A stretch of 63,786 bases of DNA, filler included, from Folioceros fuciformis (Eukaryota): assembly GCA_049999805.1 (NCBI GenBank). It is 6 parts of 6 records of this genome, joined end to end, with 100 filler letters (N's around TTAATTAATTAA, not from the genome) between each part and the next. Parts side by side here need not be neighbours in the genome. Positions count along the whole stretch, not along the records: positions 37,375 to 59,243 come from JBNGIO010004610.1; 5 more parts are not named here. One strand, given 5' to 3'. The notes below the pieces were generated by a model. It saw only the letters and a list, made by a program, of their open reading frames with translations. It was not told where the DNA came from and searched no databases. A program made the translations under genes and the position numbers. This document shows positions 13,448 to 63,498 of this stretch, in pieces (within the stretch, counting starts at the first letter, position 1; each line of letters opens with the position of its first letter).

Positions 13448-13547
13448 NNNNNNNNNNNNNNNNNNNNNNNNNNNNNNNNNNNNNNNNNNNNTTAATTAAT
13501 TAANNNNNNNNNNNNNNNNNNNNNNNNNNNNNNNNNNNNNNNNNNNN
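13448..13547. other. Artificial assembly linker N44-TTAATTAATTAA-N44 (also at 27507-27606, 37275-37374, 59244-59343, 62487-62586)
   Basis: An identical 12-mer with stops in all six frames is centred in 100-nt N blocks five times. Confidence 0.97.
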
Positions 13548-22299: not shown

Positions 22300-23242
<943 letters not shown>

Positions 23243-37200: not shown

Positions 37201-37803
37201 CGGTGGGGCCCGCCTGAGTATGTCATCTCGCATGCATGTGGGCATCATGTGCTGCCAAGGACGCGTGGCGGGGGNNNNNNNNNNNNNNNNNNNNNNNNNN
37301 NNNNNNNNNNNNNNNNNNTTAATTAATTAANNNNNNNNNNNNNNNNNNNNNNNNNNNNNNNNNNNNNNNNNNNNTCATCGCGTGGCAGGACAAACCAGAT
37401 ACCAGTGCCACTTGGGAACCCGCAAGCTTTGTTAGTTGTTCTTGTGCTTGCGAGCACAAATCCTCGACGGCAAGGAGGACTTGGCTGTAGGGTTATTAAA
37501 GCCTCCCTCAGTGGAGGAGAATGAAATAGTCGCGGACCTACCGCCACCCCGTGACCATTCCAGCCTAGTGCCCTAAGGGATAGAGATGCCCATCATAGCG
37601 GTCCACAGTCCATCCAGCCCAGAAAAACCCCTCGCGATACAAGAGGATAGGCGAGGGCGTATACAGCAGCTGCATCCCATGAAATATGTAATTGGAGGAA
37701 GCTACCTAGGTATCGCACCCCAGCTTTCTCAATCATCAAGATTGTGTACCTTGTCTGTATAGGTCACAGATCTGCACATAGCCAACATCCTAACAATTAG
37801 GAT

Positions 37804-44445: not shown

Positions 44446-44706
44446 GCCTGGATGATTCCTCAAGATACTTAGACAGCCAGTGACTTATCTGTGGGAGGTG
44501 GGGCAGGAACTTGAAGGTTCCCTAGGCATTGATGAGTTGTGCATGTGTTTCCTCCGTAGACACTGGATAACTGCATAAGCCCCACATACACACAGTCGGG
44601 TCAGCTGCTGCGAATTAGTACTTGAGGAGACAGAGGGAGCAAACACTACGCTGCAAGAAGGATGAAACTTACCTTAGTATCTAATCTCCTTACAGTGCAG
44701 TCCCTT

Positions 44707-45078
44707 CTACACAGACAGCTTCACATCATGCCGATCTTCATTGGGGGATGGTCTCCTTCTAGCTGCAATCATATCCTCAAGCTCCTTGATCCTGTCTGTC
44801 ACCAATCGGAGCTAGGCAAGTGGAGTGGGCAGGGCCATATCAAAGAAGCGGAAGTCGGTATGTTGCGGTTTAGGTCCCAGAGATGCTGGGGCCTGAACTA
44901 TCCCTGGGAGAGGCCCAAGAAGTGCTGGGTAACTGTTTATGAGTCGTATGACCTCCTCCAATGATCCGCAGCTCACCCAATTTAGCAAACTCTGCACTTC
45001 CTCTTCAATCCTTGGCTGCCTTCTGCACCTCTCAACCCTCGGTGGCTCAGTAAGGATCTTCCCGCTGCGCGTCTGCAT
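44707..45078 (-). pseudogene. Antisense accessory ORF in the 3' region of the copia element (124 codons, one internal TAG)
   Basis: MQTRSGKILTEPPR...PTPLA*LRLVTDRIKELEDMIAARRR...SV*. It is followed by a canonical intron 44672-44608 and preceded by AAACCCTAG at 45201-45193. Confidence 0.5.
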
Positions 45079-45327
45079 CTTGTCCAAGTGGCGGCTGGCG
45101 CAAAAATTGGCTATGGTGGCAACAAGGAAATCGAGAGCTGTGGCGGTGGCCGCTAAGTCCAGCGTAACGAAGAAAGTTAGTTTTTTGAAGTGCTAGGGTT
45201 TAAGAGTAATCGTGATCCTGTCAAAGGCTGAAGACCCTTTTTGTTGTTCCGTCATGCTGGTCTGCAGGAGACTCTTCCCCGACTGTCTTATGTGATTACC
45301 TTAGACCTAGTGTTGTTTGAGAGGGAG

Positions 45328-45510
45328 TGTTGGAAGTAAAGCCAACACATAGTCTAAGTGATATGAGGGTTTAGGTGATAGGCCCAAGATGAAACGTCAT
45401 CTGGGTTTAGTATATAAGTAACACTTATAGACTTTTTCAACAACATAACTCATTTTTGTCTTTCCATAATATAAAGTTTAATTGAGCCAAACTGCTCTCC
45501 GCAATTTTCA
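45328..45510 (+). repeat. 3' LTR
   Basis: Preceded by the PPT and followed by the TSD; 177/183 identical to the 5' LTR. Confidence 0.97.
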
Positions 45511-46619
45511 CTTCTAGCCATTCTTGGTCTTGGCCTCTAATCCTCCAATCAACATGTCCACTTCCCCATCTAGTAAGGGGTAAAGCCTCGAGAAGGAGTC
45601 CCTGGAGGTACCTGCTAACCAACACTGGTGGCCTCAACGTCGCTGGCTAGAGAAAAGAACTAGTCCGTTGGTCATTCATGGCCAACATAGAAGCTAGAGG
45701 AGCGTGTAGTGGATGGAGACACTTGTCTCCTTTAGCGTCCGGTGGTTTCTAGCCACCTACTTCAATAAACGCGTGTATTGAGAGTGACCCATAGATGGTA
45801 TTTTGAGTTGAGTGGTAGAGTAGGTAAGTAGATAGCTGCTTTAGCATGACACCAGACTCATGGGGACGGACTCCAGGAATCTACTACAACGACCACAAAT
45901 GATGTAGCCGCGACCATGGGATTGACAACTCCATATGGTACTTGGTACTTGGGTGGCCCCTTAGTTCTCTCTCTCACCGTGTCTCCTCCTGTCCACCTTC
46001 TTCTTTGCCTTCATCTCTACCCCCTTCTTCTTCTCCGTTGCTTCTACTTCCGTTGTGTTCCCTCTTCGTCCCTCACCCCTTCTCCCTAGTCTTTGCCCTA
46101 AGTACTAGCCGTACACAACCCTGGCACTACACGGTCTCTTACCTAAATTGTAAAGAAGCATGATGAGAATGCACACATGGCATTTTTCTAGGATTCTTCT
46201 ATCCTATAGCCTTCATGGACTTGCCTCTACTCTTGCTCAAGGAAGAACATGAATTGGCTTTTGGCCCAACCCTCTAACTAAGTGTTTTGGATCACACTCG
46301 CACTTTTTGCCATAATGTGCTTTCATTTAGGATTGGTCCGATCACTAGCCTCCTCTATATTAACATGCAAGTGCAGTGTACCCCACAATGCCTCCGGTAC
46401 TCAAGTAGCATATTGCCCCAATGGTGGACAACACTATACATCACACCATCCAAAACAATTTGTAGTTAATATAGAAGAAGATGGTTTTTTCTAACGAGTA
46501 AGTGCCCTTTGAATACCCTTATAAATATAGTTTCTGTTTGGGCTAATTTGTTTTTGACTTAGAGGGGGTGGGTAGATGTTATGGTTATTGACCCGATGTG
46601 TTTTATCATGTTATCCTCA

Positions 46620-46640
46620 CCCTAAACCCTAAACCCTAAA
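46620..46640. repeat. Short interstitial plant telomeric repeat (CCCTAAA)3
   Basis: Three exact copies. Confidence 0.7.
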
Positions 46641-47486
46641 ACCTGTCTAGGTTGGGTGGCAAAGGACAAGCGGCAACAATTGCCCGCAAATACTCTCCTA
46701 TGCAAGGTGGTCATACCATAATCCCCTTTCTATTAAGAATTATAGAAGCATGATCAAGGGTTTCTCTAGGTTTATGAAGCCCTTACTCTTACTAAAAGGT
46801 ATGATAGGTCTTTCCCTTGTGTTGTGGCTTTCTTTCCACCATAGGAGTCCTTTGCCCTTTAGACAACATTGGCCAATATGGTGCATAGAATAGTCGCTAG
46901 TGCTAGGAAAGCTGTTCCTTTAGCACTAGTGGTAGTCATATGCCCTTCCATATTCTTAACCCAAAATTCTTGGATTGTTGGTAGGGTCCAAAATGCATGA
47001 TCACGCAGGTTAGTCCATTTGGATTGATGCCTTTGGTTGATTGTTCTTGACCCTACCCCCCTTGCCCTTTTTGTTTCTTTTTTGCAATCCTCTTGTCTCA
47101 TGCAAGGCACAATGCCCTTCCAACACACCCCTTGTCACCTGCATGGATGATAGAAATCGTCTACTTGCAAATGTGTTAAGATGTCAAGAAACTTGATCTT
47201 ATGTGGTTGTTATTCCGAAGATTGCAAGTCATTTAATAGGTTATTCCACAAATCTCGTGGTTGGCATATTGTACTACTTGCCTATTCCAAGAGATTTTAA
47301 CCTCTAGGAGGAAGTTTTAGTCTTCGGATTCCATGAATTCAAGATAATGTAGTAGGCGCAAGCACTGCTGCTGTAGGCCTAGAGCGTTTGAGGAGGTGAT
47401 CTCATACCTGCTAAAGTATGCTTCGTTGGAAGTCCAGGATGCTGTGTGCGATTTCAAAATCGTTCTTATTTGGGTAATTAGTTTGC

Positions 47487-50308
47487 TCATAGGTGTACCA
47501 ATGAGGGATCGTATTGTTGCATGACTATCACAGAGGCCTCGGTTGGCACACCTTGCAATTCAGATGTAAGAGCATCGCCGATTGGACCCAACTCTGCAAA
47601 CTCCCGGGCTGGCTGATTGCATCGAGCCACCAGTAGAGTTGGAATCCGACTCCTTCCGACTAGGATTAGATCATACTTCTCTGACTTAGCGTACTCCAAA
47701 GCCGAGTCAATAGCATCAGTTGTACGTACTTCTGCGTATGTCATTCCATCTGTTCCATTAAATGGCCTTGCTTCCAGCACGTTGGTGGCATAGTGGATAC
47801 ACTCTTCATCCATCATCCTCTGTTCCTCCTGGTCTATTCCAAGAGTGTGGAAGATATACTGGTTCTGAGAAGGGCTCCCCGCCATCATAGAGTGCACAGG
47901 GCTGGAAAGAATGCCGGAGCGAGGGCTAGCAGGTGTGGCAGAGCGAGTTGAGCCGCCAATCGTGACAGAGCGAGGAGGACTGCCGGGAGTGTCAGAGGGC
48001 TCTGAATCCTCTTCAGAACCGTCTAAATTTTTGCGGCTTGATATTCCGGAGAAGGCCGTGTAATTGGAGGGGGAGGGGTCCTCTGGCATTCTCTCCACCA
48101 CATGCTCGGGTTCTACGTCCAGGAAGAACCGGAAGACGCTCAACCTGACTCCAGGATGCTCAACCATCCGGCAAGCCAAGGTGAGAGCCTCCCTATCATC
48201 GGGACCTCCAAAAAAGAGGACTAGGATGTTGTGTTCAACGCTGCTGGGTGAAAGCTGAGCATTTCCTCCCAGGCCTCTGTTGACAACCACAGCGACAGAG
48301 CAGGGGGCATGTTGTAGGATCCTTTGGTTCACAGACCGAAATCCAGCTTTCCCTTGGTCTAGCAGCCCGTCATGCCCAATCTGCTTGTGGAAGGGCACAA
48401 TGAGGAGTGTGATTCTCTTGTCTGAAGCTGTGGTGCAGATGTCTTCATGCATGTCCTCAAACCCCGAGATGGCTGTCATGGGCCTCACCGTCACCTTGGA
48501 GAGCTGGGCGTAGGCCTCAAATGCGAAGGTGACCTGGTCCTTGTTCCTATCACTGCTTTGGCCTCCAGGGAAATAAGGTATGCCATCCTTCCGTGCCCTC
48601 TGCACCAGCAAAATAGCAGAACTCCTCTCCGACATCTGCATCATGTGCAACACGTAGAGCCGGATGGGCCGCTTCCTGGTTCCCCGAGTTGCTTCCGTGA
48701 AGTTGATCATGGCTGGCACGTGCTTTAGCCCTCGGATGCATGCCAATAGCCTCAACTCTCTGTTTTCTTTGTCGGAAGCCAGAGTTCGCTGTGTGTAAGG
48801 TACTTGATTCCTGGCCGGCTTGTAGATGGTCATAATGAGCGGGCTTGTCATGAATGTAGTAAAGAGAGCCATGAGCACCATGATGGCAAAGATCTCATCT
48901 GTCAAAACCTGCACAAGAATAGGCAATGGCAATGTGGCCTTTGTGGTTTAGCAGCAGAAGCTTGTGTTACAAACTATTTAACAAGGCAAGGTAATAGAAT
49001 GCTAAGCTTACACCCCTATCTCGCCCTATGTTTAACACAATGAGCTCCACTAGGCCTTTGGTGTTCATCAGAACGCCCAGAGCCAATGCTTTGCGAACTT
49101 CTATGCGATTTAGCATGGATGCAAACACAGTGGCTAATATCTTCCCTCCGCATGCAACGCAAACCACAGCCACTAGGATCCCGCCGCCCTGGGCTCCGTG
49201 CACCGTCCCGATGTTGGTCTTGAGCCCACTTGATGCAAAGTACAGAGGCAGCATCAGAGTGGAGACAACGTCCTCAAGCTTCTCTATCATGGCGCCGGCA
49301 AAGGGGCCATCTTTAGGCACTATGAGGCCAAAGATGAAGGCCCCAAAAATGGCATGTATGCCGATGAGGTCAGTTATGAATCCAGCTGCCAGGACAGCCG
49401 CAATTGTCATGCAAATGTAAATCTCTCTCACAGGTTCGTTCTCAGGGTTCCGCTTCACCACCCACTCCAGGCAGGGCTTCACCACCACAAACATGAAGAT
49501 GACAAAGGCCGCAGCCGATAGCAACACCCAGACGGCAATGGCAGGGCTCACGTTGTTCCCGGAGCCCGATAACGCCACAGCCAAAGCAAGCAAGATCCAG
49601 GCCACTACATCATTTACCACAGCGGCCGACATGGCCATGCGCCCCACGTCTGTGGTAAGCAGCTTCCGCTCTGCCAAGATGCGTGCTAGCACGGGGAAGG
49701 CAGTGATGGACATGGCCACCCCCATGAAGACGAGGAACGGCGCCAACCTGGTGCCCTTGTTGATGGTGTGGCTCATGAGACAGGAGATGGCAACGCCCCC
49801 GGCAAAGGGAACCACGATCCCGGCCGCGGCTATGGTCATGGCGGCTCGCCCGGTCTTGCGCACCTCCCGTAGGTCCAGCTCCATGCCCACCATGAAGAGG
49901 AAGAAGAGTAGGCCAATGTTGGCAAACGTGTCCAGTACGGGAATGCTCTTCTTGGGGAAGATGTGATTTAGGTAGCTCTTATTCCTGCCAAATGCCGACG
50001 GGCCTAACAAAATCCCTCCCTACACCCATCCATACCGTCATCCTTTTCACATAATCCTTTGTTCGCCTTCACCGCAGAATGTAGTGGAATTGGAGTTGCA
50101 ATCAGAGTCTTACCAGCATCTCTGCAATCACTCGGGGCTGCCTTAGCGGCTTGAGCAAAACCGCTAGACCCCGCGTTAAGGCCAGAACGAACACCACTTG
50201 GACTATGAACAACGGCACCGCGAAGTCCAGGGGCTTGTCTTTTTGGAAGATACCATTGGAGGCGGCCGCCATGGGCTTGGGGCATTGTGGACATGTTGGG
50301 CAAGACAT
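47487..50308 (-). CDS. CHX: Cation/H+ antiporter (CHX, CPA2 family). Exons: 50308-50114, 50019-49012, 48908-47487.
   Basis: LRQPRVIAEMLGGILLGPSAFG, SITAFPVLARILAERKLLTTDVGR, AAVVNDVVAW, LMNTKGLVELIVLNIG, LVHMMQ-like/HEDIC, APCSVAV, FFGGPDDREAL and ELGPIGDAL. Confidence 0.96.
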
Positions 50309-50713
50309 TTTACTTGCTCAACAATGTCCATTCCACATCATGATTGTCAATTCTTGCGTGTAAATGGCCTTCAGCAACTTCACCTCTACAACCTCTCTCA
50401 AGCTCCTACTAGTTGTGAAACACAATTGCATTGTAAGGAAGTACCTAAACTCCTAAAAAATCGCAATTGTTACTACTAGTGTTAAGCTCTATCCTCCCCT
50501 TTTCTCCTCTCTCACAAGCCTTTTCCAATGCTCCTACAATGAAAGGTTCAACCTGGTACATATAGGTTCCTTTTATCTTATTATAGCATATTGGCTCGTG
50601 TTTCTTAATAGCTAGAAAAATAAATTTTCATATTTTTTAGATTTAATTTAAAAACTTTAATGCTTTGATAAAAATACATATTTAATAGAATATCAATTCA
50701 ATATTGGACAATT

Positions 50714-51274
50714 TTGGTAGGTATAGCTATTCATAATGGTCACACTTGTCGTGAATGTAGAAAGACTATACATGTCAATGCTCCCATTTATGTTCGTGAT
50801 GGACGAAAGATCCGACTATTTTATCATTTAGATTGTTATTCTGGGGAAGCAGATCCTCGATCACAACAACATAGCTCAATTCATAATCTTGAGAAATGGG
50901 GGAACAACATTAGCACTCAAGCTCCTAATGAAAAAGGTTATGGCAAATGGTGGACAGGGGAATATGGATATCAAGCTGGTGGAAGAACCCTAGTTTCTTC
51001 ATCAACATCTTTGAATGAAACTCAACAAAATTCTCTATTGTTTCACCATGATATAAATGAGGAATATGCTTATAAAAGGGGAAAAAAAGATAATACTCAA
51101 AAATCTACTAGCAATCTCAATGTCATGTCTAATGTTGATCATGCTCTAAGGTTGATACATAATAGGCTAAATATTTTAAAGTATACAAATAATAAAAATA
51201 CACACATAATACATTCATCTACAAATTTTGGTAGTGGCTCTAAGGAATCTAATATAAATCTCAAACCAAAATAA
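50714..51274 (+). CDS. AT-rich ORF/exon with a C-x2-C...H-x2-C (PARP-type-like) Zn finger; possibly a pseudogene
   Basis: GHTCRECRKTI...RDGRKIRLFYHLDCYSGEADPRSQ...APNEKGYGKWW...YGY in a 186-codon open frame within very AT-rich DNA. A candidate upstream exon MKGSTWYI at 50539 does not join cleanly. Confidence 0.55.
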   Translation: MVGIAIHNGHTCRECRKTIHVNAPIYVRDGRKIRLFYHLDCYSGEADPRSQQHSSIHNLEKWGNNISTQAPNEKGYGKWWTGEYGYQAGGRTLVSSSTSLNETQQNSLLFHHDINEEYAYKRGKKDNTQKSTSNLNVMSNVDHALRLIHNRLNILKYTNNKNTHIIHSSTNFGSGSKESNINLKPK

Positions 51275-52122
51275 GAAGGTTAAAAAATCAGATATTTGTT
51301 TTACGTAAAGAAAAATTGGAATCAATGCATAGTAGAAATTCAAAAGTTTGATAAGATTCGTGTTGACAATTCATTATTTTTGTACCATTTATACAAAAGG
51401 TTAAAGGTCAAAGATGATATTCAAGGAAGATATTCAAAAGATAGTAAGAGTTATGGGCTTTTAAATCTTTTTATTCTCTCTCTCTATATACATACATACA
51501 TGCATATATCCACAAAGAAGTTATGCTGATAACATATATTTTTTTTCTTAATATGGGAATTCTAATGTTAATTATGAAGAATCTTTTATTCATAAAGGTC
51601 ATAACTTATTTCTATTCTTGTAATTTATAATCTCATGAAAGTCATTAAAAAGAGGCTTTCTATTTTTGGTAAAAATGAAGTCCTTATTATGAAAAAAGAG
51701 ATGAGAAACTCATCTTACATTTATCTATGATTAGAAGTTCAAATATCCAAAGGAACTAATTAATATGGAGTCAAATATACATAGGATGTGGAATTCTATG
51801 AATTGGAAAATATGAGAGGAGAAGATGGAATTCTAAACCTTGTACCAAGCATGAAAAAGTGCACAATCCCTTAAGGAGCGTTTTATAGCGGTTTGGTGGC
51901 TACACTTTGTAACACATGAGGGTTTTCCATCATAAAGCAAATTGTCACTGAGTGCAACAAAGCAATTAATTTAGTTTATATGGTTTTATTTTGTTTATTT
52001 TAAAGTTATATTCTTTTTATGTTTTTTTCTTATTTCCTTTGAATGTTTTAAGGGTTTTCTTTTCTCCCTTTACTTTTTCTTTCTTTCCTTTGGAATGCCA
52101 TAGGACCCTCTTTGTTAGAACA

Positions 52123-53840
52123 TGTTGTGGGCAAGCGGCTGTGGTATCTCTACCAGCCACCCGCTCACATGTATCGTGGCCACATCAATCCCACGGTCGT
52201 TGTAGGCTTCTCGGGAATCGTGCCCCTCTGAGCCTGGTCAGCTACGTTTATCGTTCCCCTACAATAGTCAACCCTTCCAATCACATACCTACCAATCCTG
52301 CAACACGTCCAGTCAGTAGGAAGGCACCATTCCTTCACTTGGAAGGGCCCCAATACCTCCCCCTACCAATTTCTACCTCCCTACACTCAATACCTTTTCC
52401 TCACAAGGCTCCCTACGACACTTTCCTCAAACCCCACAATCTAGCTGCTCGTCTCCCTATGCCCAACGACCAACAAGTTTCCCTTCGAGCCTGCTCAGTT
52501 CCCTCCAACTGTGTTTATCGTTCACCTACGACATTCAACCTTCCCTAGTGCATACCTTCAACATGTCCAATTAGTAGGAAGGCACCATTCCTTCACTTGG
52601 AAGGGCCCCAGTACCTCCCCCTACCGATTTCTAACTACCTACATCCAACACCCCTTTCCTCACAAGTCTCCTTACAACACCTTCCACAACGATCCAGCTG
52701 CTCGTCTCCCTACGTCCAACAACCAACAAGTTTTTCCTTGGGCCGGTTGTTGCGTGCTTGCGCTTGTTAGTGAGAACTTCCAGGGAGTCTTTCCCTGGAG
52801 TCTACCCTCAAGCCAACAGCCACACAGGTATTGCCACACACCTACAGTAGCACGGCAACCATTCACAAGGGAAGCAACTTGCAGGGGTGCCCATGGAAGA
52901 ATATAAGCCCTTCGCCAAGCACTTTGACCAGTGCAACTCTAGCCACAACGAGGCGCTATGATGGCACACAGCCGGCAACGAGATTCCTACAATCTGCTGA
53001 GCATGAGAACTCGCCTTGAGAAGAGTGCAGAATGTGGTGGTTCATTTCTTTGTGTAGCCCTTCCTTATAGGAGAGATCGACACATGAACCCTCTCTTACA
53101 TGTAGGTGGTGACCTACCCTTCTCTCACACTAGGCGCCACCAACTTTAACTGCGCACACCTACCAAGAGACTAAGTCCTTCCAATAATTGCTAGGGCATT
53201 GCACTCCACTGAAGATTAGGACTGCCGCGCTGCCATAGAAGATTCGTTGACCCTCTCTTCAAAAAAGTGTGGCTAGGACTGCTCTTGAAGGGAGGCAGAG
53301 TCTAAAGGTTGAGCTACTAGGCCCCCCTCCATTATTGGGATTCGTCTTCTTTTGGATCCACGAACTTGCACCGTACCTTCCTTTGTGTGGATCTCTTGGG
53401 ATATCCCTTCACCACCACCTTCAAGTTTGGTAGGGAAGGGATCCACTTGTTCTTCAACTTGAGGTTCCTTCCCTACGTAGGGTGAGGATGTCCCCTTCGT
53501 AGGTAGGTTCCCTACACCTCGTAGGTAGATTCCCTACCCTTCCTCTCGTAGGTAGGTTCCCTACCATTCCCACCCATTGTCGTAGGTAGACAGCCTACCC
53601 CATTGCCTTAGGTGGGGTGTCTACCGTATAAGTACCTTCCCTACCTACGTAGGTATCTTCCATTTTCCCCACGTAGGTACTCTCTCTACGTATGTAGGTA
53701 GACATTCTACTACGTAGGAATCTTCTTATCCTAACCTATTAGAATAGAACTAAAAAAATCCATAAAAACCTTCACCAACCGCTCACTACCTACCATGGAC
53801 ACTTGCCTAGAAACCTACCTTCCACATGCCTCCCTTCAAA
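52123..53840 (-). mobile_element. Putative long (~1.7-kb) LTR on the minus strand preceded by a PPT (gypsy-like)
   Basis: Minus strand reads TTTGAAGGGAGGCA|TGTGGA at 53840-53821, with a candidate end ...CACAACA at 52123. Internal gtaggtaggttccctac repeats (53470-53720) recur inverted at 62428-62486. No second LTR is visible to confirm it. Confidence 0.45.
52247..52744. repeat. Diverged tandem duplication of ~265 bp
   Basis: gtttatcgtt...agtaggaaggcaccattccttcacttggaagggcccca...agctgctcgtctcccta occurs from ~52247 and again from ~52513. Confidence 0.85.
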
Positions 53841-54449
53841 TTGTTCTGAACAAGAAGAAACCAAGTTAGACTTTCCTAGACCGATTACCAAACTTTTCCG
53901 TTCCACACATGTGAAGGTCATTCTCAAGAGATGTGTGTGGGAAATTGTTCAAGACTTAGGATGTGAGGCCCATATGTAACTCTTCATATTTCAAATACAC
54001 TTCATGAACCTCTACTAAAGTATCGGCAATGGTTGCACATGCAGGCATCATCTCTATCATGCTCTAAAAGATCTTGACTTCTTACATCCAACTTCCCTCA
54101 ACTCTATGACCGACCAAGTCTAGCATGTAAGTTTGCATTATATATATATATCTGTATATATATGTGAGGTGGCCAGCCCCTATAGGAATATACACACACT
54201 CTCATAACAATGCACATAGATGCCTTCGCTTGGGTGCTTCCTCCCCATCGTGCACACCAAGGCTACCGACTATCCCTCCACTCTTTGGTGGTTCACTACA
54301 CATGAGATCGACGAAAGGAGTAGCACCTAAGGGGAGGTTAACACCACTTCCAGATCCCTCTCCAAGTTCTTCAATCTTTTCATCATACCTCACCTGCCTC
54401 TTTTGCTTACAAGCACCACCTAACACGTCATCAACTTCCCTCATCCTCT

Positions 54450-55039
54450 TGATCTCCCCCCAACTTCTAGACTTTCGTCCCTTTTTACTTCACCCAAATT
54501 ACGCTCTTCTATCCTTGTATTCAAAATAACTTTCCACTTCTTCTTCCACTCTTGATAAACTTTTATAGGCATCATAAGCCACTTAATGGTATTTAAATCC
54601 ATAGCTTGCCCAAGCTTTTTGTTTCTCTACTCAAATGTTATGCCCTCCATGTCATTGGTATTTGTATCAAAACCCATCGCTCTCTCTCTCCATGGGAGAT
54701 GGCACATCCCACATATTTCTCTTCGTGTCAAATATCATCCTAGGTCCATCCCCCTTAAATGCATTAGCATTTTCAAAACTAACAAATGTCAGCGATGCTC
54801 TCCTAAGTTCACCCTTTTTATTTATACAAATAAAAGGGTTATCTGTCATGTGAAGTCACCCGCTTACTTACTCGCCCCTCATCTAATATCTAATCAACTA
54901 TCAAATCATCATCCCTATGCCATCGATCTACATGCCTTTGCAACAAATGCTTGGGCATCATAGTATTCCAGAAACACCCATGCCTATGAGCCCTAGATCC
55001 AAATTGCACCGCATCCAACTCTACAGGTATTAGAAAAGC
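54450..55039 (-). pseudogene. Decayed C5 cytosine DNA methyltransferase catalytic C-terminal half (DNMT3-like motifs VIII-X)
   Basis: Reading across 2 frameshifts and 2 stops gives PVELDAVQFGSRAHRHGCFWNT...ILDEGR...PSPMERE(R)AMGFDTNT...GITFE*RNKKLGQAMDLNTIKWL. This matches the DNMT3-type pattern DA..SAAHRARYFW / ER.FGFP..YT / R.KLLG in order. Confidence 0.75.
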
Positions 55040-55139
55040 NNNNNNNNNNNNNNNNNNNNNNNNNNNNNNNNNNNNNNNNNNNNNNNNNNNNNNNNNNNNN
55101 NNNNNNNNNNNNNNNNNNNNNNNNNNNNNNNNNNNNNNN

Positions 55140-58100
55140 GCATTTACAGTTTAGACAGTTCAATAACCACTTAATAATTTGTATAAGACAATTCGTTTTA
55201 GCAATAAACAATATCCTTTTTGCTTCACACTTGAGAGGACGCTTTCCTTCCATGGCTCCCAAGAACATCCATCGCCTAGCCTCCTCACCTCGATCTTGCC
55301 ATAGCTAGCTTCATAGCTTTTATGGTATCAGAGCTAGTTCAATGAGTCCTTAGCAAATGCGATGGGTGTCAATCCATCTTGAATGCATCACTTTGCCTTC
55401 AAGATGTCGAAACAAAGATTTCCTGCACCCAACAATCTTCTCTAATGCGCCCACTTTCTGCTTGCTTGGGCTAGATTCTTTGTTCCTTTTGTAGATCTAT
55501 GGAGAAGAGGGCGACTTTGTCAACTCCCCAGAGTCATCCCGCACGTTTTCCGACGCCCAGACGTGAATGCCGACATCGACATCCTGCCATTGCATATGTT
55601 CTTCGCTGCATGACCGAGAGAGTCTTGCATACGAAGAAATCCTCTCCAAGACGCACCAATGAAGATAAAATTGCGTCTCTTCACAGAGAGCTCTACACTC
55701 TACAAATGTGTGTGAGGGAGCAGGATGCATTCATCTCAAGGATATTTGAGAACGTTGAGGTTCTTCACTTGTCTTGTGTAGAACATTTTCAAACGGATAT
55801 CAAATCTGTTAGTCCTCCTTGAGCTAGAACACGTATGTCTAGCACCATGTTGTAGTTTCTCGTTTATGATAGATAGTTCAGACTTTGAGGATGAAATTGT
55901 CGTGGACATTTCATCTCTCTTTGCTGAACCTCCTAACCTCTCTGTCTCGGATTTCTCCCCGAGCAATCTCTTAGAAGGACAATGTCCACAACCATCAGTC
56001 CCTAATAGGACTCTTAATCCTTTAGTCATGTTTGGAGCCTCATCTTCTGTCCTTGTTGTTCCTGCCTTGAAGATTGAATTCAGGGACAAGGACAGGTTTA
56101 ATGGCACAGACTATAACATTTGGGCTATGAGACTCACCCAAATTTTTGAGGAGAATGAGCTGTTGTCCATTGTGGATGGCAAAGAACCTAAGGTGATGAT
56201 GACACCTGCTAGAACGGCTGACGAAATCCTAGCCTAGGAGCGTAAGGATAGACGAGCACGTTCCATACTCATTGCTGCCTTAGACAGAAACGTTATGCCA
56301 CACACAATAGATGCGAAGACATATGCAAATGTGTGGAAAGTTTTTAAGTCAATTTACCAAGATAAGAGCTCAGCGTCTCTGGTGCATGTGCACAGAGATT
56401 TTTTCAATTTGAGAATGAGGGACAATGAGCCTGTTGAGGCTTACATCAACAAATTTAGGACTCTTCATGCTAATCTTGCGTATTGTGGCACAGTGCTCAC
56501 GGAAGTACAAGCAGCGATAAGCGTCCTGGCTTCACTTCCTGAGAGCTATTAGCATTTTGTTGGCAGTCAAAATGCCACAATACACGCAGCTGTTCAGGCG
56601 GCAACATCAGGTCAACCACCAAAAGTGACTCTCGAGGAAGTCATCGATGCCCTCATATCTGAAGAACGCACAAGGAGCTTCCACAAGAATAAGAGTTCCA
56701 CTACCAACAACACAAGAGTCCTCTTCACGTCAAGAAGACGAGGTGGTTTTCGTGGGCGTGGCAGAGGACAAGGTTCCTACACAAACTCACAGCGTGATGT
56801 GACCACAAAGAAGACCATTGTTTGCAACTGGTGCAAGATACCGGGACACTATGAATGTGACTGCTGCAAAAAGAAGGGAGGTGAACCCAGACGAGAACAT
56901 CCTCCAGAGAGCAACATCACTACCAGCAAGACTAAGCAGCCCACCATCCTGGCAGTTTGTTTGTCATCCACACAAGTACAATCAAACACATGGTTTCTCG
57001 ACTCTGGAGCTACAAGTCACATTTGCTTTCATAGGCGTGCTTTTTCTTCCTTCATTCCTTCTGCTGATGCAAAGCTGTTTGTCTTACAATAGTGGACTTT
57101 CTATCAAAGGCTCAGGCTCAGTTATCATTTACCTACCTGATTCTACTAGACTTACACTCACAAATGTTCTTCATGTTCCTTCAATGACCAAAAACTTGAT
57201 GTATGTTCTAAAGTTGTCACAGGAACATTATTGCCGAGTGTGTTTTGATCAACAAGGGTGTTATGTCTCAAGTACTAGGTCTGGACATGATCTTTTCTCA
57301 GGCTCACCTTTTCATGACTTGTATCTCTTGAATGTCAAAACTAATCTCAGTACCATTCAGTCAGTTCACTCTACAAAAGTCCCCTCCACACAATTGTGGC
57401 ACTGTCGTCTAGGACATGTCAACTTCTAACGTCTTAGTTCCCTTGTCAAAGGAGAAAGTTATAGAGAGCCTTTGGATTTCTCTTTTGATAAGAATACTTT
57501 TTGTGAAGCCTGTCAGTTGAGTAAGGCTCATTCGCTGCCTTTCAAGGAGTTAGCCCTTAGCAGAGCCGATGGTTTACTTCACACTGTACATAGCGACATA
57601 TGTGGCCCCATGTCCACATCTCCTTTGGAGGAGCAGACTATTTCTTGACGTTCATTGATGAATGGAGCAGATACTATGTGGCTTACTTACTTCGACATCA
57701 GAGCAAGACTTTCGACTACTTCAAGTCTTATGTTCAGTATGGTCAACGGCAGACTACAAGTAAGATTCGAATTTTGCGAACGGACAATGGTGGTGAGTAC
57801 ACCAGCCATGCCTTCACTTCATTCTGTACACAGGAAGGAATTCTTCACCAGTTGACAGTTCCTTACACTCCATAAAAGAATGCCTTCTCAGAACGCAAAA
57901 ACAGAATTTTGCAGGAAGCTACTTTGGCTTCACTGTCCTTTGCTGGATTAACCCGTGGATATTGGGCCGAAGCTTTGATGGCCGTCAACTGTGTGCAGGA
58001 TCGCTTGCCAACAAAGGAGCTTGGCCCCATAACTCTGTATGAGAGATGGACGGGCAAGAAGCCCCAAGTACGTCATCTACGAATTTTTGGTGCTCCTACC

Positions 58101-58677
58101 TATGCCCTTGTACCTCCAGCATTGTGTTCTAAATCAGATCCTAAGGCTTCAAGACATGTTTTTGTTGGCTACTCAGAAGAAGTGAAGGGTTACAAGTTGT
58201 TCAACCCTATCACTTGTCAGCTCACCATCTCCAGGAGTATGGTTTTTCATGAGGCAGCCCTTCTTCGCCGTCATATTGCAGCTTTGCTTCTGGATGCTAC
58301 TCCTTTCCCTTCTTCTACCCACGACATCGAAGATTCAGCACTCATGGATACTGATGAGATGAGTATCTTCGACGACAAGGATGCTTCTCCTTCTCAGGGG
58401 CCAACTGGAGCAGTTCCAACTTCTGATCATCCAGATGGCAAGAATGATAAGGTTTCAGATGCAGTGTGTCCTTCAACGCCTTTGCTATCAACAACAGAGC
58501 CTTGTGACGTCAGTGATTCTCCGACTCTGTCTAACATAGAAGTTTCTTTAGTTGAGTCCATACCCACGTCTGTTGCCGAAAATGACCCTGTTGAGACAAC
58601 TTCACCACTCCGTCGGTCTACCCGAATTCGACGTCCCATGCATGAGTGGAAGGAGCCTCCCTTTTCTGCACACACAG
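55140..58677 (+). mobile_element. Truncated decayed Ty1/copia element (partial LTR, PBS, gag, protease, integrase; RT missing)
   Basis: PBS TGGTATCAGAGC at 55323-55334; DKDRFNGTDYNIW; CNWCKIPGHYECDC; WFLDSGATSH; LWHCRLGH; LRTDNGGEY; FVGYSEEVKGYKL; LRRSTRIRRP. Confidence 0.92.
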
Positions 58678-59243
58678 TGTGAACCTCCAAAGTTTGGGAT
58701 AGTGGTTTGTTTTGGTTGAAAAAGGGTTAATAGTGGTATGGTTTGGTTTTCTTTTTCTACTTATTTTCCCTAATTTTCCTTTATTTTATGGTTATTTTCT
58801 TATTTTTCTTTGTGCAAATTAGGTTAATTGACCGGGAAATAGTTGGTTTGGTTATAAGAGTGGGTATAGGTTTGGTCCCAGACTTGGGAAAGTTTAGGTC
58901 TGGTACCGGACCATAGGGTCGAGAAAGTTTGAGTCTAGGTTTGGTGATTTGGTTTATTATTAATTAAAGATATATAGTATCAAATGATTAAATAATATAG
59001 AATAAATAAAAATAATAAAATAATGGTTTGAACCTAGGAATGGGAATCTGGGGTATGTCAGAGGGTCAGAGTCTATGTCGGGTTTGGCTGGACTAAACGG
59101 CCATGGAGGCCGTGCCCTAGCTAGGGTAGGGGCTGCGGCCGCTCCCATCCCTTTCTTCCTCTCTTCCTCCCTCCCTTCCTCCATTTTCCTCTTCTCCCCC
59201 TTCCCTCTCCATCTCTTTGTCCCGCTTCTTCTTTTGGATCCAC
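58678..59243. mobile_element. Probable nested insertion (LTR-like, starts TGT) interrupting the copia pol
   Basis: Abrupt switch from pol coding sequence to T/G-rich non-coding DNA at TGTGAACC. Confidence 0.4.
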
Positions 59244-59343
59244 NNNNNNNNNNNNNNNNNNNNNNNNNNNNNNNNNNNNNNNNNNNNTTAATTAATTAAN
59301 NNNNNNNNNNNNNNNNNNNNNNNNNNNNNNNNNNNNNNNNNNN

Positions 59344-61077
59344 GGCATATCCCTTGGCCACAAGCCTTGCCTTGTACCTGTTGATACTACCATCTGCGTT
59401 GTGTTTGACCTTGTACACCCATTTGCAACCTATTGGTTTCTTGCCTTCAGGTTGTTGTACTAGGTCCCATGTTGCATTCTGATTTAACGCATTCATTTCT
59501 TCATCCATAGCATGTTCCCACTTTGTGTCTCCAATAGCTTCTTCAAAGCTTCTTGGTTCCACATCCTGTACAACCTTTGCCATATAGGCATGGTGCCTAG
59601 CTACATAGCTATCATAGGTCAACCGCTGTATTGGAACCTTCTGCCTTCCAGATCTCCGTGGGATTGAACCACTTCCAGGGGCTGATTGAACCTCTTTTGC
59701 ACCAGGTGTTTCGATTTTCGGTACACCGAATTCCTCATCCAAGCTCTGCTCAGAGTCGCTTGAATCATCCGCACCTGCACTTAGGTCTGGTATCTTTGAA
59801 TCCTGGACTTTTTCCTTCCCTTTGCGAGACACAGCTGTGGAGCTCGTAGGACTCACACTACCTCGCAACCTGCCACTCCATGGATTCTGAACAGTTGTCG
59901 AGTTTGATGACGCTTGCGGTCCACTCAACACTTGTGATTGTTGACCTGCATTGCTTGTTACCTCAGTTTCAAGCACATCAGCTACACTACTTCCTTGTAC
60001 TTCAAAGTACCAGCTACCCATTTCATCAAAGACTACGTCTCTGCTTACTCTCATAGTCCGTGTACTGGGATTGTAGCACCTGTATCCTTTCTGTGTAACA
60101 GAATACCCAATGAAGACACACTTTTCTGCTTTTGGATCAAGCTTAGTCCGCAACTCATCCGGAATATGGACATAAGCAATGCAACCAAATACCTTTAAGT
60201 GTGACAAGTCAGGTTTCTTCCCTGTGAACTTCTCCTCCGGTGTTACACTGTGCACCGCTGCTGTGGAAGTTCTGTTCATGATGTACACTGCTGTGCTTAC
60301 AGCTTCAGCCCAATAGCAGTGAGGCATCTTCTTCTCTGTCATCAAGGCTCTCGCCACTTCTGCTATGTGCCTGTTCTTGCGCTCTGCAACTCCATTTTGT
60401 TGTGGCGTATAACGACATGAGTACTGCCGTTGAATGCCCTGTTCTGATAAGAATTTGCTGAACTCTCTGGAGAAGTACTCTCCCCCTCCATCAGATCTTA
60501 GGCATTTGATGTGCCTACCTGTCTGCTTCTCAACCATCGCCTTGAAAGTATGAAAATGAGTGATCACTTCACTTTTTTCTTTCATGAAATAGACCCACAC
60601 CTTCCTTGTGTGGTCGTCAATGAAGGTCACATAGTACTTGCAGCCTCCGATTGATGCAATCTGTGTAGGACCCCATACATCTGAATGCGCAACATCCAAC
60701 ACATATCTGCTGACATGTTTGTCATGGGGGAACGCATTCCTAGGCTGTTTCCCAAGTTGACATGCTTCACATATACCTTGCAGTCCATTTTCTGTAAGCT
60801 TGGGTATGCCTGTGACAACCTTCTGATGCTGCATGGACTTCAACTTCTGCACATTTACATGTCCAATGCGTTTGTGCCACATCTCTAGGTCTGTCACTAC
60901 CCTTGTACCCTTCGCAAACATGGCTGACTTCAGCTTAGGAACCTCCACGTTCAAGGTGAACATCCGTCCAACCTTCTGTCCTTGAGCAATCAGGCGACCG
61001 CCTTTCTTGCACTCTTCAACAAAGAGTCCTGCAGGTGTAAATCTAACCTGCAGTCCTTGCTCAACCATCTGCCCAAC
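59344..61077 (-). mobile_element. Ty1/copia pol fragment (GAG-pre-integrase, integrase, start of RT) with an uninterrupted frame
   Basis: About 575 stop-free codons: MWHKRIGH, CEACQLGK, HSDVWGP, LRSDGGGEY, TPQQNGVAERKNR, KKPIGCKWVYKVK, YKARLVAKGYA. Cut by a linker at the 3' end and by foreign sequence within the SVGQM motif at the 5' end. Confidence 0.95.
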
Positions 61078-61078
61078 T

Positions 61079-61336
61079 TGTCAATAGGATCGACTCCAAT
61101 CTACGTGCAAGTGTAGGAGAGGAGAGGAGAGAAGAGAGGGTGGTATTGGTGATCACAACCATGAAAACAATACACATCACCACTGTCTTACTATGGAGGT
61201 CCGAGGTCTCCATTTAAGTAGTACATTTAGGGCTACACAACTTCCAGGTTCAATATGGGATAATCTACACTATCCTAAGTTCACTAATAACTAGAACTAG
61301 TATAGTATGAACCCAACTGGGATAACTAACACCACA
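61079..61336 (-). mobile_element. Putative LTR of a nested element (TGT...ACA)
   Basis: Starts at the break in the copia ORF and shares a ggagaggagaaagagag tract with the LTR at 63513. Confidence 0.4.
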
Positions 61337-61794: not shown

Positions 61795-62486
61795 TTGGGC
61801 GTGGGGTGCCCTATCTTCGACCCTGGCAAGGCAACCACCCGTTTGGCCTACCCGGCGAACCAGGAACTCCAGCAACGACTTGAAGCAGGGCAACGAGAGC
61901 GAGTGGACAGGGAACAATTGACCATCCAATTAGAAGACCTTCAGCAGGAGAAAGCACAACAAGAAGCTGAGCATCAGACCAAGATTCACAGGATGCTGGT
62001 GGTTTGAGCTCGTAGGTTTCGTGCTGACTATGCCTACTTGACGGGCTGCATGACCAAGCTTCATGCAACTCATCAAGAAAGCCTTGACCTACAGTTGAAG
62101 GTAGGGGAAATGGAGGCTGAACGGGATATCGACAAGAGTAGATGCGAGGGTGGGGATTGGGTTGTTGACATGGATACCATAGATCTAGCTCAATAGAATC
62201 GCAACCTCCACCTACACCAACGTCTACTCGCTCATCACAAGGAACTGACAGCATTGGCAAGGCGAAGGTATCTTGGGCCACATGATGACGACCGTGAGGC
62301 CTTGGAGACAATGCCTCTACCAACAGACTTTCAAGAGGACAGCAGTATGGACCTAGAGAGCTCGCAATGGGAACCTGAGGAGCTGCTATGGGCTAGGAAG
62401 AGCACGCAACAAGGGGTACCTACTCCCGTAGGGAACCTACCTACCAGAGGAGGGGTAGGGAACCTACCTACCAGAGGAGGGGTAGG
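61795..62486 (+). pseudogene. Decayed coiled-coil-rich ORF (~230 codons, 2 internal stops) ending in 27-bp tandem repeats; likely retroelement accessory or gag-like ORF
   Basis: ORFs 61795-62007 and 62254-62486 are in the same frame and joined by open sequence with a single extra TAG; Q/E/L heptad-like composition. Confidence 0.4.
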
Positions 62487-63498
62487 NNNNNNNNNNNNNN
62501 NNNNNNNNNNNNNNNNNNNNNNNNNNNNNNTTAATTAATTAANNNNNNNNNNNNNNNNNNNNNNNNNNNNNNNNNNNNNNNNNNNNGTTGTGGGTCTGTT
62601 GGCCGCGAAGCGAGAGTAGTCAAGTCGAGTCGCGACGGGGGACGGCGGTGTAGCCGGCTGGAGAAACCGTGAGTGTGAGAAGGCGAGAGTCAGAGGTAAG
62701 GTGAGTCTGTAGGTGAGATTGGTTAAACGACTATGGAAGTCTGGAGTATTAAGAACCCAGGAACATCGCTTAGACCCAGAACGAGGTCAGGAGGGGTAAG
62801 TCGTACCTAGAGTTAGAGAGAAGAGAGATAGAGAGAGAGAGAGTGGGGCCCACTGAGGTAGTAGAATCTGCGACCGTCGTCGAGTCGCGACCGAGGTAGT
62901 CAAGACCTGAGGTAGCCGAAGTGTCCCCGGGGTAGCTGAGGGACGGTAGTTGAAGAGACCCACTCCGGTAGCCAAGTGAATTTGTAGGGGGGATCATGAT
63001 TGGGGTAGCGGAGCCGCAATGAAGGTAGCGGTAATTGAGCGGCAGGTAGAAGAGTGGAAGGTAGGTAAAGACTGACCCTGGGTAGTAACTGACTTTATAA
63101 GAAAACCTGTGTTATTTAGCACAAATCATTCCCTTGGGATTGAATCCCAATGCTATAACAACAAAGAGGGTTTAAGTGGACCTCGCAGCATCCCTGGGTG
63201 CAATATTTTCCCCCACAACAAGATATTCCAAATGTGGAAGAGGAGTGAGCTCCCTGAACAGATAGTAGGAGGAAGCTCTGGGACAAAGAAATGTGCAAAA
63301 GCCAAGAGGAAACTTGGGGAAGCTGAACTCGCTTCCAGTAGTGCGCAAATATCAGATAAGTCATTGAAGAAGGTTGTAGCAATGCAGGGAAGGCCTTGAG
63401 GGCTTTTCAAGGAGTCCCAGCAGGGGTTAAAGGCAAGGAAATGCTTATAGCTGTGACGTCCGCAGCAGCTGCATCCCTCACCCTCTTGCTCCGCACCT

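What the first reader, a model, noticed from the sequence alone, without database searches (positions are those of the whole stretch)
53821..55039. DNMT3-like cytosine methyltransferase remnant embedded in an LTR-retrotransposon context
Seen: the minus strand encodes motif VIII-like DAVQFGSRAHRHGCFWN (55015-54965), motif IX-like ERE(R)AMGF..T (broken by a slip in a GA run at ~54685) and motif X-like RNKKLGQAMDLN. It is intronless and lies ~0.7 kb upstream of a same-strand PPT|TGT junction (53840-53821), among TE debris. The N-terminal motifs are lost at the gap and neighbouring copia. The ORF track misses it because of the frameshifts. Established: retrotransposons carrying C5 methyltransferases have been described in dinoflagellates and charophyte algae. 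Motif X at the C-terminus is the non-permuted DNMT3 order, unlike DRM. Inference: a methyltransferase-carrying retroelement family existed or persists in this land-plant lineage and may methylate its own cDNA.
Basis: partly seen in the sequence, partly recalled or inferred. Interest (0 to 1): 0.8.

Follow-up and report, generated by a model that had tools for sequence, protein, structure and literature searches.

The report
Dead retrotransposon-borne DNMT3 methyltransferase fragment
This is a broken, gap-truncated tail end of a DNMT3-type DNA cytosine methyltransferase whose closest relatives sit inside Gypsy-type retrotransposons of green algae and a liverwort, which suggests that such methylase-carrying jumping genes also lived in this land plant.

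Summary
On the minus strand, 55039-54516 encodes the C-terminal ~175 residues of a C5 cytosine methyltransferase (motif VIII, target-recognition region, motifs IX and X). It is spread over three frames by two frameshifts and carries 2-3 in-frame stops. A 100-N gap at 55040 cuts it off.

Pfam and PDB searches with the peptide itself found nothing. A HMMER search of 1.84 billion proteins gave 106 relatives, best E 3.5e-12. Of the 26 I scanned, 14 carry PF00145 and 9 carry it in one protein with gag/PR/RT/RNase H/integrase domains.

A profile of 25 relatives matches solved DNMT3A/B/C best (E 5e-22; DRM2 3e-10). It also matches the three window frames colinearly.

Named relatives are Closterium, Chromochloris, Cymbomonas and one Marchantia protein.

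Contigs of the same organism's DNA runs give the segment about 10-20 times single-copy depth.

Not shown: any physical link to an LTR at this locus. RT, RNase H and integrase are absent. A much higher-copy repeat starts at ~54300. The proposed PPT|TGT junction lies inside that repeat.

Verdict: a dead relic of a Gypsy-DNMT3-type element. It is a new member of a known kind.

The parts
54812..55039 (-). DNMT piece 1 (frame starting at 55039): end of motif VII, motif VIII (LDAVQFGSRAHRHGCFWN) and the first part of the target-recognition region. In-frame TAG at 54892-54890 and probably TAA at 54841-54839. Cut at its N-terminal side by the gap.
   Evidence: family profile positions 202-273, 57-61 bits; tblastn hits colinear with pieces 2 and 3 (e.g. 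P0083 residues 512-582).
54682..54837 (-). DNMT piece 2 (next frame, after a frameshift near 54830): target-recognition region PFICINKKGELRRASLTFVSF...WDVPSPMERE, up to the start of motif IX.
   Evidence: profile positions 265-316, 46-50 bits; tblastn (e.g. P0083 residues 577-631).
54516..54689 (-). DNMT piece 3 (third frame, after a frameshift in the GA run near 54685): motif IX (RERAMGF), in-frame TAG at 54629-54627, motif X (LGQAMDLN), then the end of the domain.
   Evidence: profile positions 315-378, 38-42 bits; phmmer with P0001.
54304..54515 (-). Stretch after the domain (linker). Same moderate copy level as the DNMT pieces. A few relatives still align down to about 54453.
   Evidence: X1 depth 132 in 54304-54555 against 8-13 over the single-copy CHX region. 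P0046, P0052 and P0102 align to 54453-54480.
55040..55139 (.). 100-N assembly gap that removes the N-terminal half of the methyltransferase (motifs I-VI) and everything upstream.
   Evidence: no profile 1-201 match beyond the gap.
52140..54303 (-). High-copy non-coding repeat that abuts the DNMT segment. It has an internal ~260-bp duplication (52246-52733) and a 27-bp tandem repeat (53497-53571). Whether it belongs to the same element is not shown.
   Evidence: X1 summed depth 740-4377 against 8-13 for single-copy DNA, with steps near 54300 and 53800; internal repeats, terminal TGTGG...CCACA read from the sequence, no second copy in the window.

Best explanation
The stretch 55039-54516 (minus strand) is the decayed C-terminal half of a DNMT3-type C5 cytosine methyltransferase domain. 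That domain once belonged to the Gag-Pol polyprotein of a Ty3/Gypsy-type LTR retrotransposon, of the kind described as Gypsy-DNMT3 in streptophyte algae.

In intact relatives the domain lies either between protease and reverse transcriptase, or between RNase H and integrase. It is presumably made with the polyprotein and, by the published hypothesis, methylates the element's own new DNA copy or nearby host DNA.

The window copy cannot work:
- the catalytic half is missing (lost in the gap)
- the second arginine of motif VIII is replaced
- two frameshifts and 2-3 stops break the frame
- the pol domains that should follow are gone; about 85 codons after motif X, a different and far more abundant repeat begins

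Related copies at 80% identity or more are present at roughly 10-20 times single-copy depth in this organism's DNA runs. So a family of such elements amplified in this land-plant lineage.

Shown: homology, DNMT3 type, retroelement context of the relatives, decay, multi-copy state. Inferred: that this particular copy sat in a Gypsy element, and what the enzyme did.
For: (1) phmmer with P0001 found 106 hits at E<=1e-3, best 3.5e-12, at about 40% identity.

(2) Pfam on 26 of these hits (mostly the longest): 14 of 26 have PF00145. 18 of 26 have retroelement domains. 9 of 26 have both in one protein. Examples: P0061 is CCHC-PR-DNMT-RT-RNaseH-INT, and P0036 is RT-RNaseH-DNMT-INT-PHD.

(3) All three frame pieces hit the relatives colinearly and hit the family profile colinearly.

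(4) The consensus of the relatives shows motifs I, IV (CQ), VI (ENV), VIII (AHRxRxYW), IX and X in the unpermuted order. The profile's best solved matches are DNMT3A/B/C at E 5e-22, with DRM2 at 3e-10.

(5) Named relatives are Closterium (8 of 30 looked up), Chromochloris and Cymbomonas. One more is Marchantia polymorpha MARPO_0008s0049, which has a CCHC-like knuckle, a protease and a DNMT. Its tblastn to the window gives 9.6e-20.

(6) Depth in run X1 is 132-215 over 54304-55039, against 8-13 over most of the CHX region. 18 different X1 contigs share one variant at 54569.

(7) The peptide itself gave no hit to solved DNMT3A, even at E<=10. It is therefore nearer to the retroelement family than to host DNMT3.
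Against: - No RT, RNase H, Gypsy integrase, gag or protease remnant lies on the minus strand near the fragment.
- No paired LTR is present, and the window holds no second copy of the candidate LTR.
- The DNMT segment and the adjacent repeat differ 4- to 30-fold in summed depth. They may be two unrelated elements. The assembly path through a 2-kb high-copy repeat could also be wrong.
- Pfam PF00145 does not hit the window peptide.
- The tree cannot say which of the two architectures the copy had. The AU test does not reject moving it to the other side (p 0.572).
- No host plant DNMT3 sequence was available for the tree, so 'nearer to the TE family than to host DNMT3' rests on search scores only.
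- Summed contig depth is only a rough guide to copy number, as the tool itself warns.
Confidence: 0.82

Rival explanations
1. It is a processed or otherwise decayed pseudogene of the plant's own DNMT3 gene, unrelated to mobile elements.
For: Non-flowering land plants have host DNMT3 genes (Yaari et al. 2019, PMC6453930; passages read). The family profile is DNMT3-like. No pol domain lies next to the fragment.
Against: The peptide gives no hit to solved DNMT3A/B at E<=10, yet it hits retroelement-embedded domains at 1e-12. The segment has about 10-20 times single-copy depth, with many variant contigs. None of the 30 relatives scanned against Pfam showed PWWP, ADD or DUF3444.
Confidence: 0.06
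2. It comes from a methyltransferase-carrying element of another class (Copia- or DIRS-type), or from a non-autonomous composite element that carries only a DNMT relic next to the high-copy LTR-like repeat.
For: A 2025 survey says DNMT3 members are embedded in LTR Copia and DIRS elements (PMC12344493; passage read). One Closterium model (P0070) joins a Copia-type integrase to this DNMT. The fragment directly abuts a high-copy repeat with a PPT-like tract and TGTGG...CCACA ends.
Against: Every relative with a clear architecture is Gypsy-type, with RT_RNaseH and Integrase_H2C2 in the order RT-RH-INT. P0070 may be a chimeric gene model. The depth step at about 54300 argues that most copies of the repeat do not carry the DNMT segment.
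Confidence: 0.09
3. It is an assembly artefact: algal or other foreign DNA, or a mis-join, placed at the end of a plant contig.
For: The window is a chain of contigs joined by N runs and TTAATTAATTAA linkers. The fragment lies at a contig end, behind a 2-kb high-copy repeat that short-read contigs do not bridge. Most named relatives are algae.
Against: The block 40998-55039 contains no N. Contigs of two DNA runs labelled with the same organism cover the fragment near-identically at single-copy depth (X1 record 7: 54239-54643, 2 differences, depth 8.35) and also as many diverged copies. Identity to algal proteins is only about 40%. These runs may be the assembly's own source, so they are not independent support.
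Confidence: 0.03

Closest known systems
KnitGypsy-Dnmt3 of Klebsormidium nitens (de Mendoza et al. 2018, PMC5890265; passages read)
   Same: An intronless, unpermuted DNMT3-type domain inside the Pol polyprotein of a Gypsy-type element in a streptophyte. The window's relatives show the same kind of fusion.
   Different: No Klebsormidium sequence was among the named hits, so direct kinship was not tested. The window copy is a dead fragment in a land plant, with no pol domains left. The relatives show two different insertion points (PR-DNMT-RT and RNaseH-DNMT-INT-PHD).
Marchantia polymorpha MARPO_0008s0049 (P0271), annotated 'hypothetical protein'
   Same: A land-plant protein with the same DNMT family. 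tblastn to the window gives 9.6e-20, at 32-46% identity over the three pieces. Motifs VIII, IX and X are nearly word for word those of the family. It carries a CCHC-like knuckle (read by eye in the print) and a protease-like region (blastp label) ahead of the DNMT.
   Different: It is an open 961-aa model that retains motifs I, IV and VI. Its genomic surroundings (RT, LTRs) could not be fetched. I found no paper naming this gene (0 papers).
Host DNMT3 (animal DNMT3A/B/C; plant DNMT3 with DUF3444, Yaari et al. 2019, PMC6453930)
   Same: These are the best solved-structure matches of the family profile (E 5e-22). They share the motif VIII signature AHRxRxFW and the unpermuted order.
   Different: The window peptide alone does not reach them. 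The relatives lack PWWP, ADD and DUF3444 and sit in retroelement polyproteins. The segment is multi-copy.
DRM2 (plant domains-rearranged methyltransferase)
   Same: DRM2 is a DNMT3-derived catalytic domain. The profile hits it at E 3e-10.
   Different: In DRM, motif X is followed by motifs I-V (recalled, and stated in the PMC5890265 passage). Here nothing resembling motifs I-V follows motif X.
SymbioDIRS-Dnmt3 of Symbiodinium (PMC5890265)
   Same: A DNMT3-type domain in a retroelement Pol. That paper showed its de novo CG methylation in yeast.
   Different: It is a DIRS-class element with a tyrosine recombinase, in dinoflagellates. It was an independent acquisition according to that paper.

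Membership tests
C5 cytosine DNA methyltransferase (Pfam PF00145) | Significant match of the peptide to the curated family model | tested here: not met
   No PF00145 hit at E<=10 for the three pieces or for the read-through P0001. In the relatives, PF00145 mostly matched their N-terminal half (model positions up to ~130-160, at most 233 of 324). That half is missing here.
C5 cytosine DNA methyltransferase (Pfam PF00145) | Conserved motifs VIII, IX and X in order | tested here: met
   Colinear matches to a profile of 25 relatives, of which 10 of the 14 scanned against Pfam hit PF00145 themselves (P0108, from P0005's cluster, is among the 11 not scanned). Profile positions 202-378, 38-61 bits per piece.
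C5 cytosine DNA methyltransferase (Pfam PF00145) | SAM-binding motif I, catalytic motif IV (PCQ cysteine) and motif VI (ENV) | tested here: not met
   No match to profile positions 1-201 anywhere in the window. They would lie in or beyond the gap at 55040. They are present in the relatives' consensus.
DNMT3 subfamily | Closer to DNMT3 than to other C5 methyltransferase classes | tested here: met
   Family profile against all PDB chains: DNMT3A/B/C at 5e-22 to 6e-18, DRM2 3e-10, M.HhaI 3e-9, DNMT2 3e-6, DNMT1 not listed at E<=1. This tests the family, not the window peptide alone. No tree with host DNMT3 was possible.
DNMT3 subfamily | Unpermuted motif order (X at the C-terminal end, not followed by I-V as in DRM) | tested here: met
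   The window shows VIII, then IX, then X, and then no further profile match. The relatives run I to X in order.
DNMT3 subfamily | Host-type reader domains (PWWP/ADD in animals, DUF3444 in plants) | not testable with these tools
   The N-terminus is lost in the gap. None of these domains was seen in the 30 relatives scanned. Some have a PHD finger after the integrase.
Gypsy-DNMT3 LTR retrotransposons | DNMT domain in one reading frame with gag/PR/RT/RNase H/integrase | tested here: not met
   Met in the relatives: 9 of 26, more. At this locus no such domain lies on the minus strand within the contig. Truncation can explain this, but the link is by homology only.
Gypsy-DNMT3 LTR retrotransposons | Paired LTRs with PBS/PPT around the coding region | tested here: inconclusive
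   There is one candidate 3' LTR (53826 to 52140, TGTGG...CCACA) with a short PPT-like tract. The window has no partner. A depth step at about 54300 separates it from the DNMT segment. Two metagenome loci of relatives showed no LTR pair within the DNA held.
Gypsy-DNMT3 LTR retrotransposons | Repeated (multi-copy) in the genome | tested here: met
   Summed contig depth is 132-215 (X1) and 89-193 (X2) over 54304-55039, against about 8-13 over the neighbouring single-copy gene. There are many variant contigs. Depth of contigs is a rough measure.

The most novel reading that the evidence does not exclude
Gypsy-type retrotransposons that carry their own DNMT3 de novo methyltransferase were not confined to streptophyte algae. 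They persisted into land plants, in this lineage and in Marchantia. Intact copies that could still be active, and that write cytosine methylation on their own new insertions, may still exist in this genome alongside the host's RdDM and DNMT3 machinery.
Probability: 0.3. Interest if true: 0.7.

Novelty: new member of a known kind. Interest (0 to 1): 0.5.

Why it matters
Retrotransposons that carry a cytosine methyltransferase turn the usual picture around, since methylation normally serves as host defence. So far they are described from dinoflagellates and the charophyte Klebsormidium (PMC5890265). Later papers speak only of 'streptophytes'.

Seven full-text searches turned up no report from a land plant. 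A multi-copy relic here, together with an unremarked gag-PR-DNMT protein in Marchantia, suggests the family crossed into embryophytes.

If intact copies exist, land plants would offer a setting with genetics and methylomes in which to test what a transposon gains from its own DNMT3. This copy itself is dead and has no function.

Tried and rejected
- **Pfam and PDB with the peptide:** Pfam on the three pieces and on the read-through gave no DNA_methylase hit, only sub-threshold noise (Ad_cyc_g-alpha, Kelch_FKB95). PDB phmmer with the read-through gave 0 hits at E<=10.
- **The search for homologous proteins with P0001, longer proteins:** none at E<=0.01. The word index is too coarse at 40% identity.
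- **Whole-genome search:** no genome is held for this window.
- **Other copies in the window:** none found by tblastn, blastn or HMM. The only shared DNA is a 27-bp tandem motif, also present at 62428-62486.
- **RT/RNase H/integrase remnants downstream (50020-54500, both strands):** nothing below E 0.04, and all hits were short.
- **Architecture of the window copy from the tree:** the free tree puts it on the PR-DNMT-RT side (the split has SH-aLRT 91). The AU test does not reject the other side (p 0.572; the constrained tree is 5.04 log-likelihood units better), so this is left open. Of 161 candidate proteins, 88 rows went into the tree. Dropped: P0051 (a WD40 protein, a false hit), rows with no profile match in the core columns or with over 30% gaps in the 156 core columns, and duplicates.
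- **Paired LTRs around relatives:** With P0268, 4 metagenome loci were fetched. L001 and L002 show no direct repeat of 80 nt or more. The L002 contig is almost filled by ORFs, so its LTRs would lie outside it.
- **TSD for the high-copy repeat:** none found by eye at the candidate ends. The alternative TGTAG(54300)...CTACA(52201) ends do not fit the depth boundary.
- **RNA:** no RNA holder listed. The one run guessed to be RNA (X3) covers the CHX gene, and touches the DNMT stretch only with a 51-nt purine-rich match carrying 7 differences.
- **CpG depletion:** observed/expected is 0.46 in the fragment against 0.58 window-wide, which is not telling.
- **Supplements:** those of PMC5890265 and PMC12344493 were not opened. 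They may list land-plant hits.
Full report
**What is there**

On the minus strand, directly below the 100-N gap at 55040-55139, three reading frames carry consecutive parts of one protein domain.
- The frame that starts at 55039 reads AFLIPVELDAVQFGSRAHRHGCFWNTMMPKHLLQRHVDRWHRDDDLIVD, then a TAG (54892-54890), then ILDEGRVSKRVTSHDR, then a TAA (54841-54839), then PFY.
- The next frame reads PFICINKKGELRRASLTFVSFENANAFKGDGPRMIFDTKRNMWDVPSPMERE.
- The third frame reads RERAMGFDTNTNDMEGITFE, then a TAG (54629-54627), then RNKKLGQAMDLNTIKWLMMPIKVYQ...

The two frame changes lie in a T-rich run near 54830 and in the GAGAGAGAGAG run near 54685. The coordinates and peptides in the finding are correct.

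**Is it more than chance, and what is it**

Pfam finds no DNA_methylase in the pieces or in a read-through of the last two frames (P0001; X at the frameshift and at the stop). phmmer against all PDB chains finds nothing at E<=10.

A full HMMER pass of P0001 over 1.84 billion representative proteins gave 106 hits at E<=1e-3. The best were 3.5e-12 and 4.1e-11, at about 40% identity.

I scanned 26 of them, mostly the longest, against Pfam:
- 14 carry PF00145 (C-5 cytosine methylase).
- 18 carry retroelement domains.
- 9 carry both in a single protein.
- One (P0051, a WD40 protein) is a false hit.

Two layouts recur. P0061 is zinc knuckle - protease - DNMT - RT - RNase H - integrase. P0036, P0041, P0083 and P0064 are RT - RNase H - DNMT - integrase - PHD finger.

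tblastn of all hits back on the window shows that all three frames match, in the right order, and nothing else nearby does. For example, P0083 residues 512-582, 577-631 and 630-668 match the three pieces in turn.

**DNMT3 type**

An alignment of 25 relatives (A1) has a consensus with these motifs, in the unpermuted order:
- motif I: ELxGGI
- motif IV: AGWxCQ
- motif VI: ENV
- motif VIII: GSxAHRxRxYWxN
- motif IX: ERExAMGY
- motif X: LGxAMDxN

Its profile hits solved DNMT3A, 3B and 3C first (E 4.9e-22 to 6e-18). DRM2 follows at 3e-10, M.HhaI at 3e-9 and DNMT2 at 3e-6.

The same profile was run without filters over all six frames of the whole window. It finds exactly three positive-scoring matches:
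- profile 202-273 at 55027-54812
- profile 265-316 at 54837-54682
- profile 315-378 at 54689-54516

Nothing matches profile positions 1-201, and nothing follows motif X. So the catalytic half is absent, and the order is not the DRM permutation. In motif VIII the window has AHRHG where the family has AHRxR.

**Who has such domains**

Of 30 relatives looked up by exact sequence, 10 carry an organism name. Eight are Closterium, one is Chromochloris zofingiensis and one is Cymbomonas tetramitiformis. The other 20 come from unnamed metagenome or read-assembly sources.

A word-indexed search with the alignment listed 22 proteins. One of them is Marchantia polymorpha MARPO_0008s0049 (P0271, 961 aa). 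Its sequence shows a CCHC-like knuckle, a protease-like region and a full DNMT with PCQ and ENV. It matches the window at 9.6e-20. So at least one annotated land-plant protein has the gag-PR-DNMT layout.

**Is the window a land plant**

Yes, as far as one can tell. It holds an E-motif PLS-type PPR gene (5867-8467) and Copia elements of plant type. It also holds a CHX17-type cation/H+ antiporter (47487-50019) that is 64-69% identical to proteins of lycophytes, mosses, liverworts, ferns, gymnosperms and angiosperms alike, with no close relative.

**Copy number**

The same organism's public runs were laid on 47500-55039 at 80% likeness or more. They are Logan contigs, and two of the DNA runs come from one sample that may be the assembly's own source.

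| Stretch | X1 summed depth |
|---|---|
| CHX gene and its upstream DNA, to 52035 | 8-13 in most bins (two reach 15.6 and 31.1) |
| 52036-54303 | 740-4377 |
| 54304-55039 (DNMT stretch) | 132-215 |

For the DNMT stretch, X2 gives 89-193. Eighteen different X1 contigs share one variant at 54569. The tool warns that this is no true copy number. Even so, the contrast with the flanking gene, and the many variant contigs, argue for a family of roughly ten to twenty related copies and against a lone pseudogene.

**The LTR question**

This is the weak point. In both known layouts a pol domain (RT or integrase) starts 130-190 residues after motif X. In the window that would be near 54150-53990. Nothing of the kind is found between 50020 and 54500 on either strand.

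Instead, about 85 codons after motif X, at about 54300, the depth jumps roughly five-fold into a non-coding repeat that runs to about 52140.

Depth roughly doubles across it (977 to 2239 in X1). On the minus strand, the stretch from 53826 (TGTGG) to 52140 (CCACA) has matching inverted ends. It may therefore well be the PPT and 3' LTR of some abundant LTR element.

Nothing shows that this element is the one that carried the DNMT:
- the window has no partner LTR
- I found no target-site duplication
- the short-read contigs do not bridge the repeat

Three readings remain open: an internally deleted element, two juxtaposed elements, or a mis-join through the repeat. The Copia at 55782-58682 is on the other strand and beyond an assembly gap. 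It has no bearing on the fragment.

**Tree**

Eighty-eight of 161 candidate rows were aligned over 156 core columns (profile 202-357). Dropped were one false hit, rows with no match in the core columns or with over 30% gaps, and duplicates.

The rows split into a PR-DNMT-RT side (Closterium, Marchantia) and an RT-RNaseH-DNMT-INT-PHD side (Chromochloris, Cymbomonas), with SH-aLRT 91. The window falls on the first side, unresolved, on a long branch of 1.13.

An AU test does not reject placing it with the other side (p 0.572; the constrained tree was even 5.04 log-likelihood units better). The architecture of the window's ancestor is therefore open. No host DNMT3 sequences were available to me as stored proteins, so the tree does not test host against transposon origin. 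That rests on the search results above.

**Mechanism**

For the family, the domain is translated as part of Gag-Pol. de Mendoza et al. (PMC5890265; abstract and passages read) showed de novo CG methylation in yeast for the DIRS-borne DNMT3 of Symbiodinium. Their result for the Klebsormidium Gypsy-borne one was inconclusive. They proposed that such enzymes methylate the newly made DNA copy. That is a hypothesis, and nothing here tests it.

For this copy, no activity is possible.

**Literature**

Known cases are Klebsormidium (Gypsy) and dinoflagellates (DIRS, LINE). A 2025 survey speaks of DNMT3 in LTR and DIRS elements 'in streptophytes and dinoflagellates' (PMC12344493; passage). A 2026 preprint speaks of 'streptophytes (Gypsy-DNMT3)'.

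Seven full-text searches found no report from a land plant, and none naming the Marchantia gene. I did not open supplements, and subscription journals are not covered.

**Verdict**

This is a real, dead, gap-truncated relic of a DNMT3-type methyltransferase of the retrotransposon-borne family. It is multi-copy in a land-plant-like genome. It is a new member of a known kind. Its interest is moderate, and would rise if intact copies exist in this genome.

Noticed in passing
window 59243-59344 and 62487-62586; same 44-12-44 layout at 13448-13547, 27507-27606, 37275-37374: Some gaps are 44 N + TTAATTAATTAA + 44 N (letters seen for the first two; the others share the layout). These are contig-joining linkers, so neighbours across them, and perhaps across the 100-N gaps, need not be truly adjacent.
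   Followed up: partly
window 47487-50328 (-): CHX17-type cation/H+ antiporter gene. A 2470-nt contig of run X3 (guessed RNA) joins 50018 to 50113, i.e. a 94-nt GT..AG intron on the minus strand, with a 5' exon at 50113-50328.
   Followed up: partly
run X4 laid on window 50272-55039: X4 (same sample as X1/X2) differs from the window almost only by G>A (259 places) and C>T (158 places), as a bisulfite- or enzyme-converted library would. A methylome of this organism therefore seems to exist.
   Followed up: no
proteins P0061, P0050, P0020 versus P0036, P0041, P0083: The same DNMT family sits at two different places in Gypsy polyproteins: between protease and RT, or between RNase H and integrase (with a C-terminal PHD finger). 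The two layouts fall on opposite sides of the DNMT tree (SH-aLRT 91). This suggests either two captures or one relocation.
   Followed up: partly
protein P0271 (Marchantia polymorpha MARPO_0008s0049): This protein is annotated as hypothetical. It reads as gag-like CCHC knuckle + protease + complete DNMT3-type domain, a retroelement-type protein in a model liverwort. I found no paper naming it.
   Followed up: partly
protein P0070 (Closterium sp. NIES-53): A Copia-type integrase (rve + SH3_retrovirus) and the C-terminal half of this DNMT lie in one 834-aa gene model. It is either a chimeric model of nested elements or a Copia-borne DNMT.
   Followed up: no
window 53497-53571 and 62428-62486: A 27-bp tandem motif (TCGTAGGTAGGTTCCCTACC...) occurs in the high-copy repeat and again, inverted, at the end of another contig block. 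It has the highest depth of the laid stretch (X1 4377).
   Followed up: no
window 3503-4039, 5867-8467, 22700-23242, 24888-25850, 39977-43024, 56238-58682, 59296-61080: Other content of the window: a lipoyl synthase N-terminal exon, an E-motif PPR gene, a dephospho-CoA kinase exon, an RNase III-domain exon and three Copia elements or fragments.
   Followed up: no
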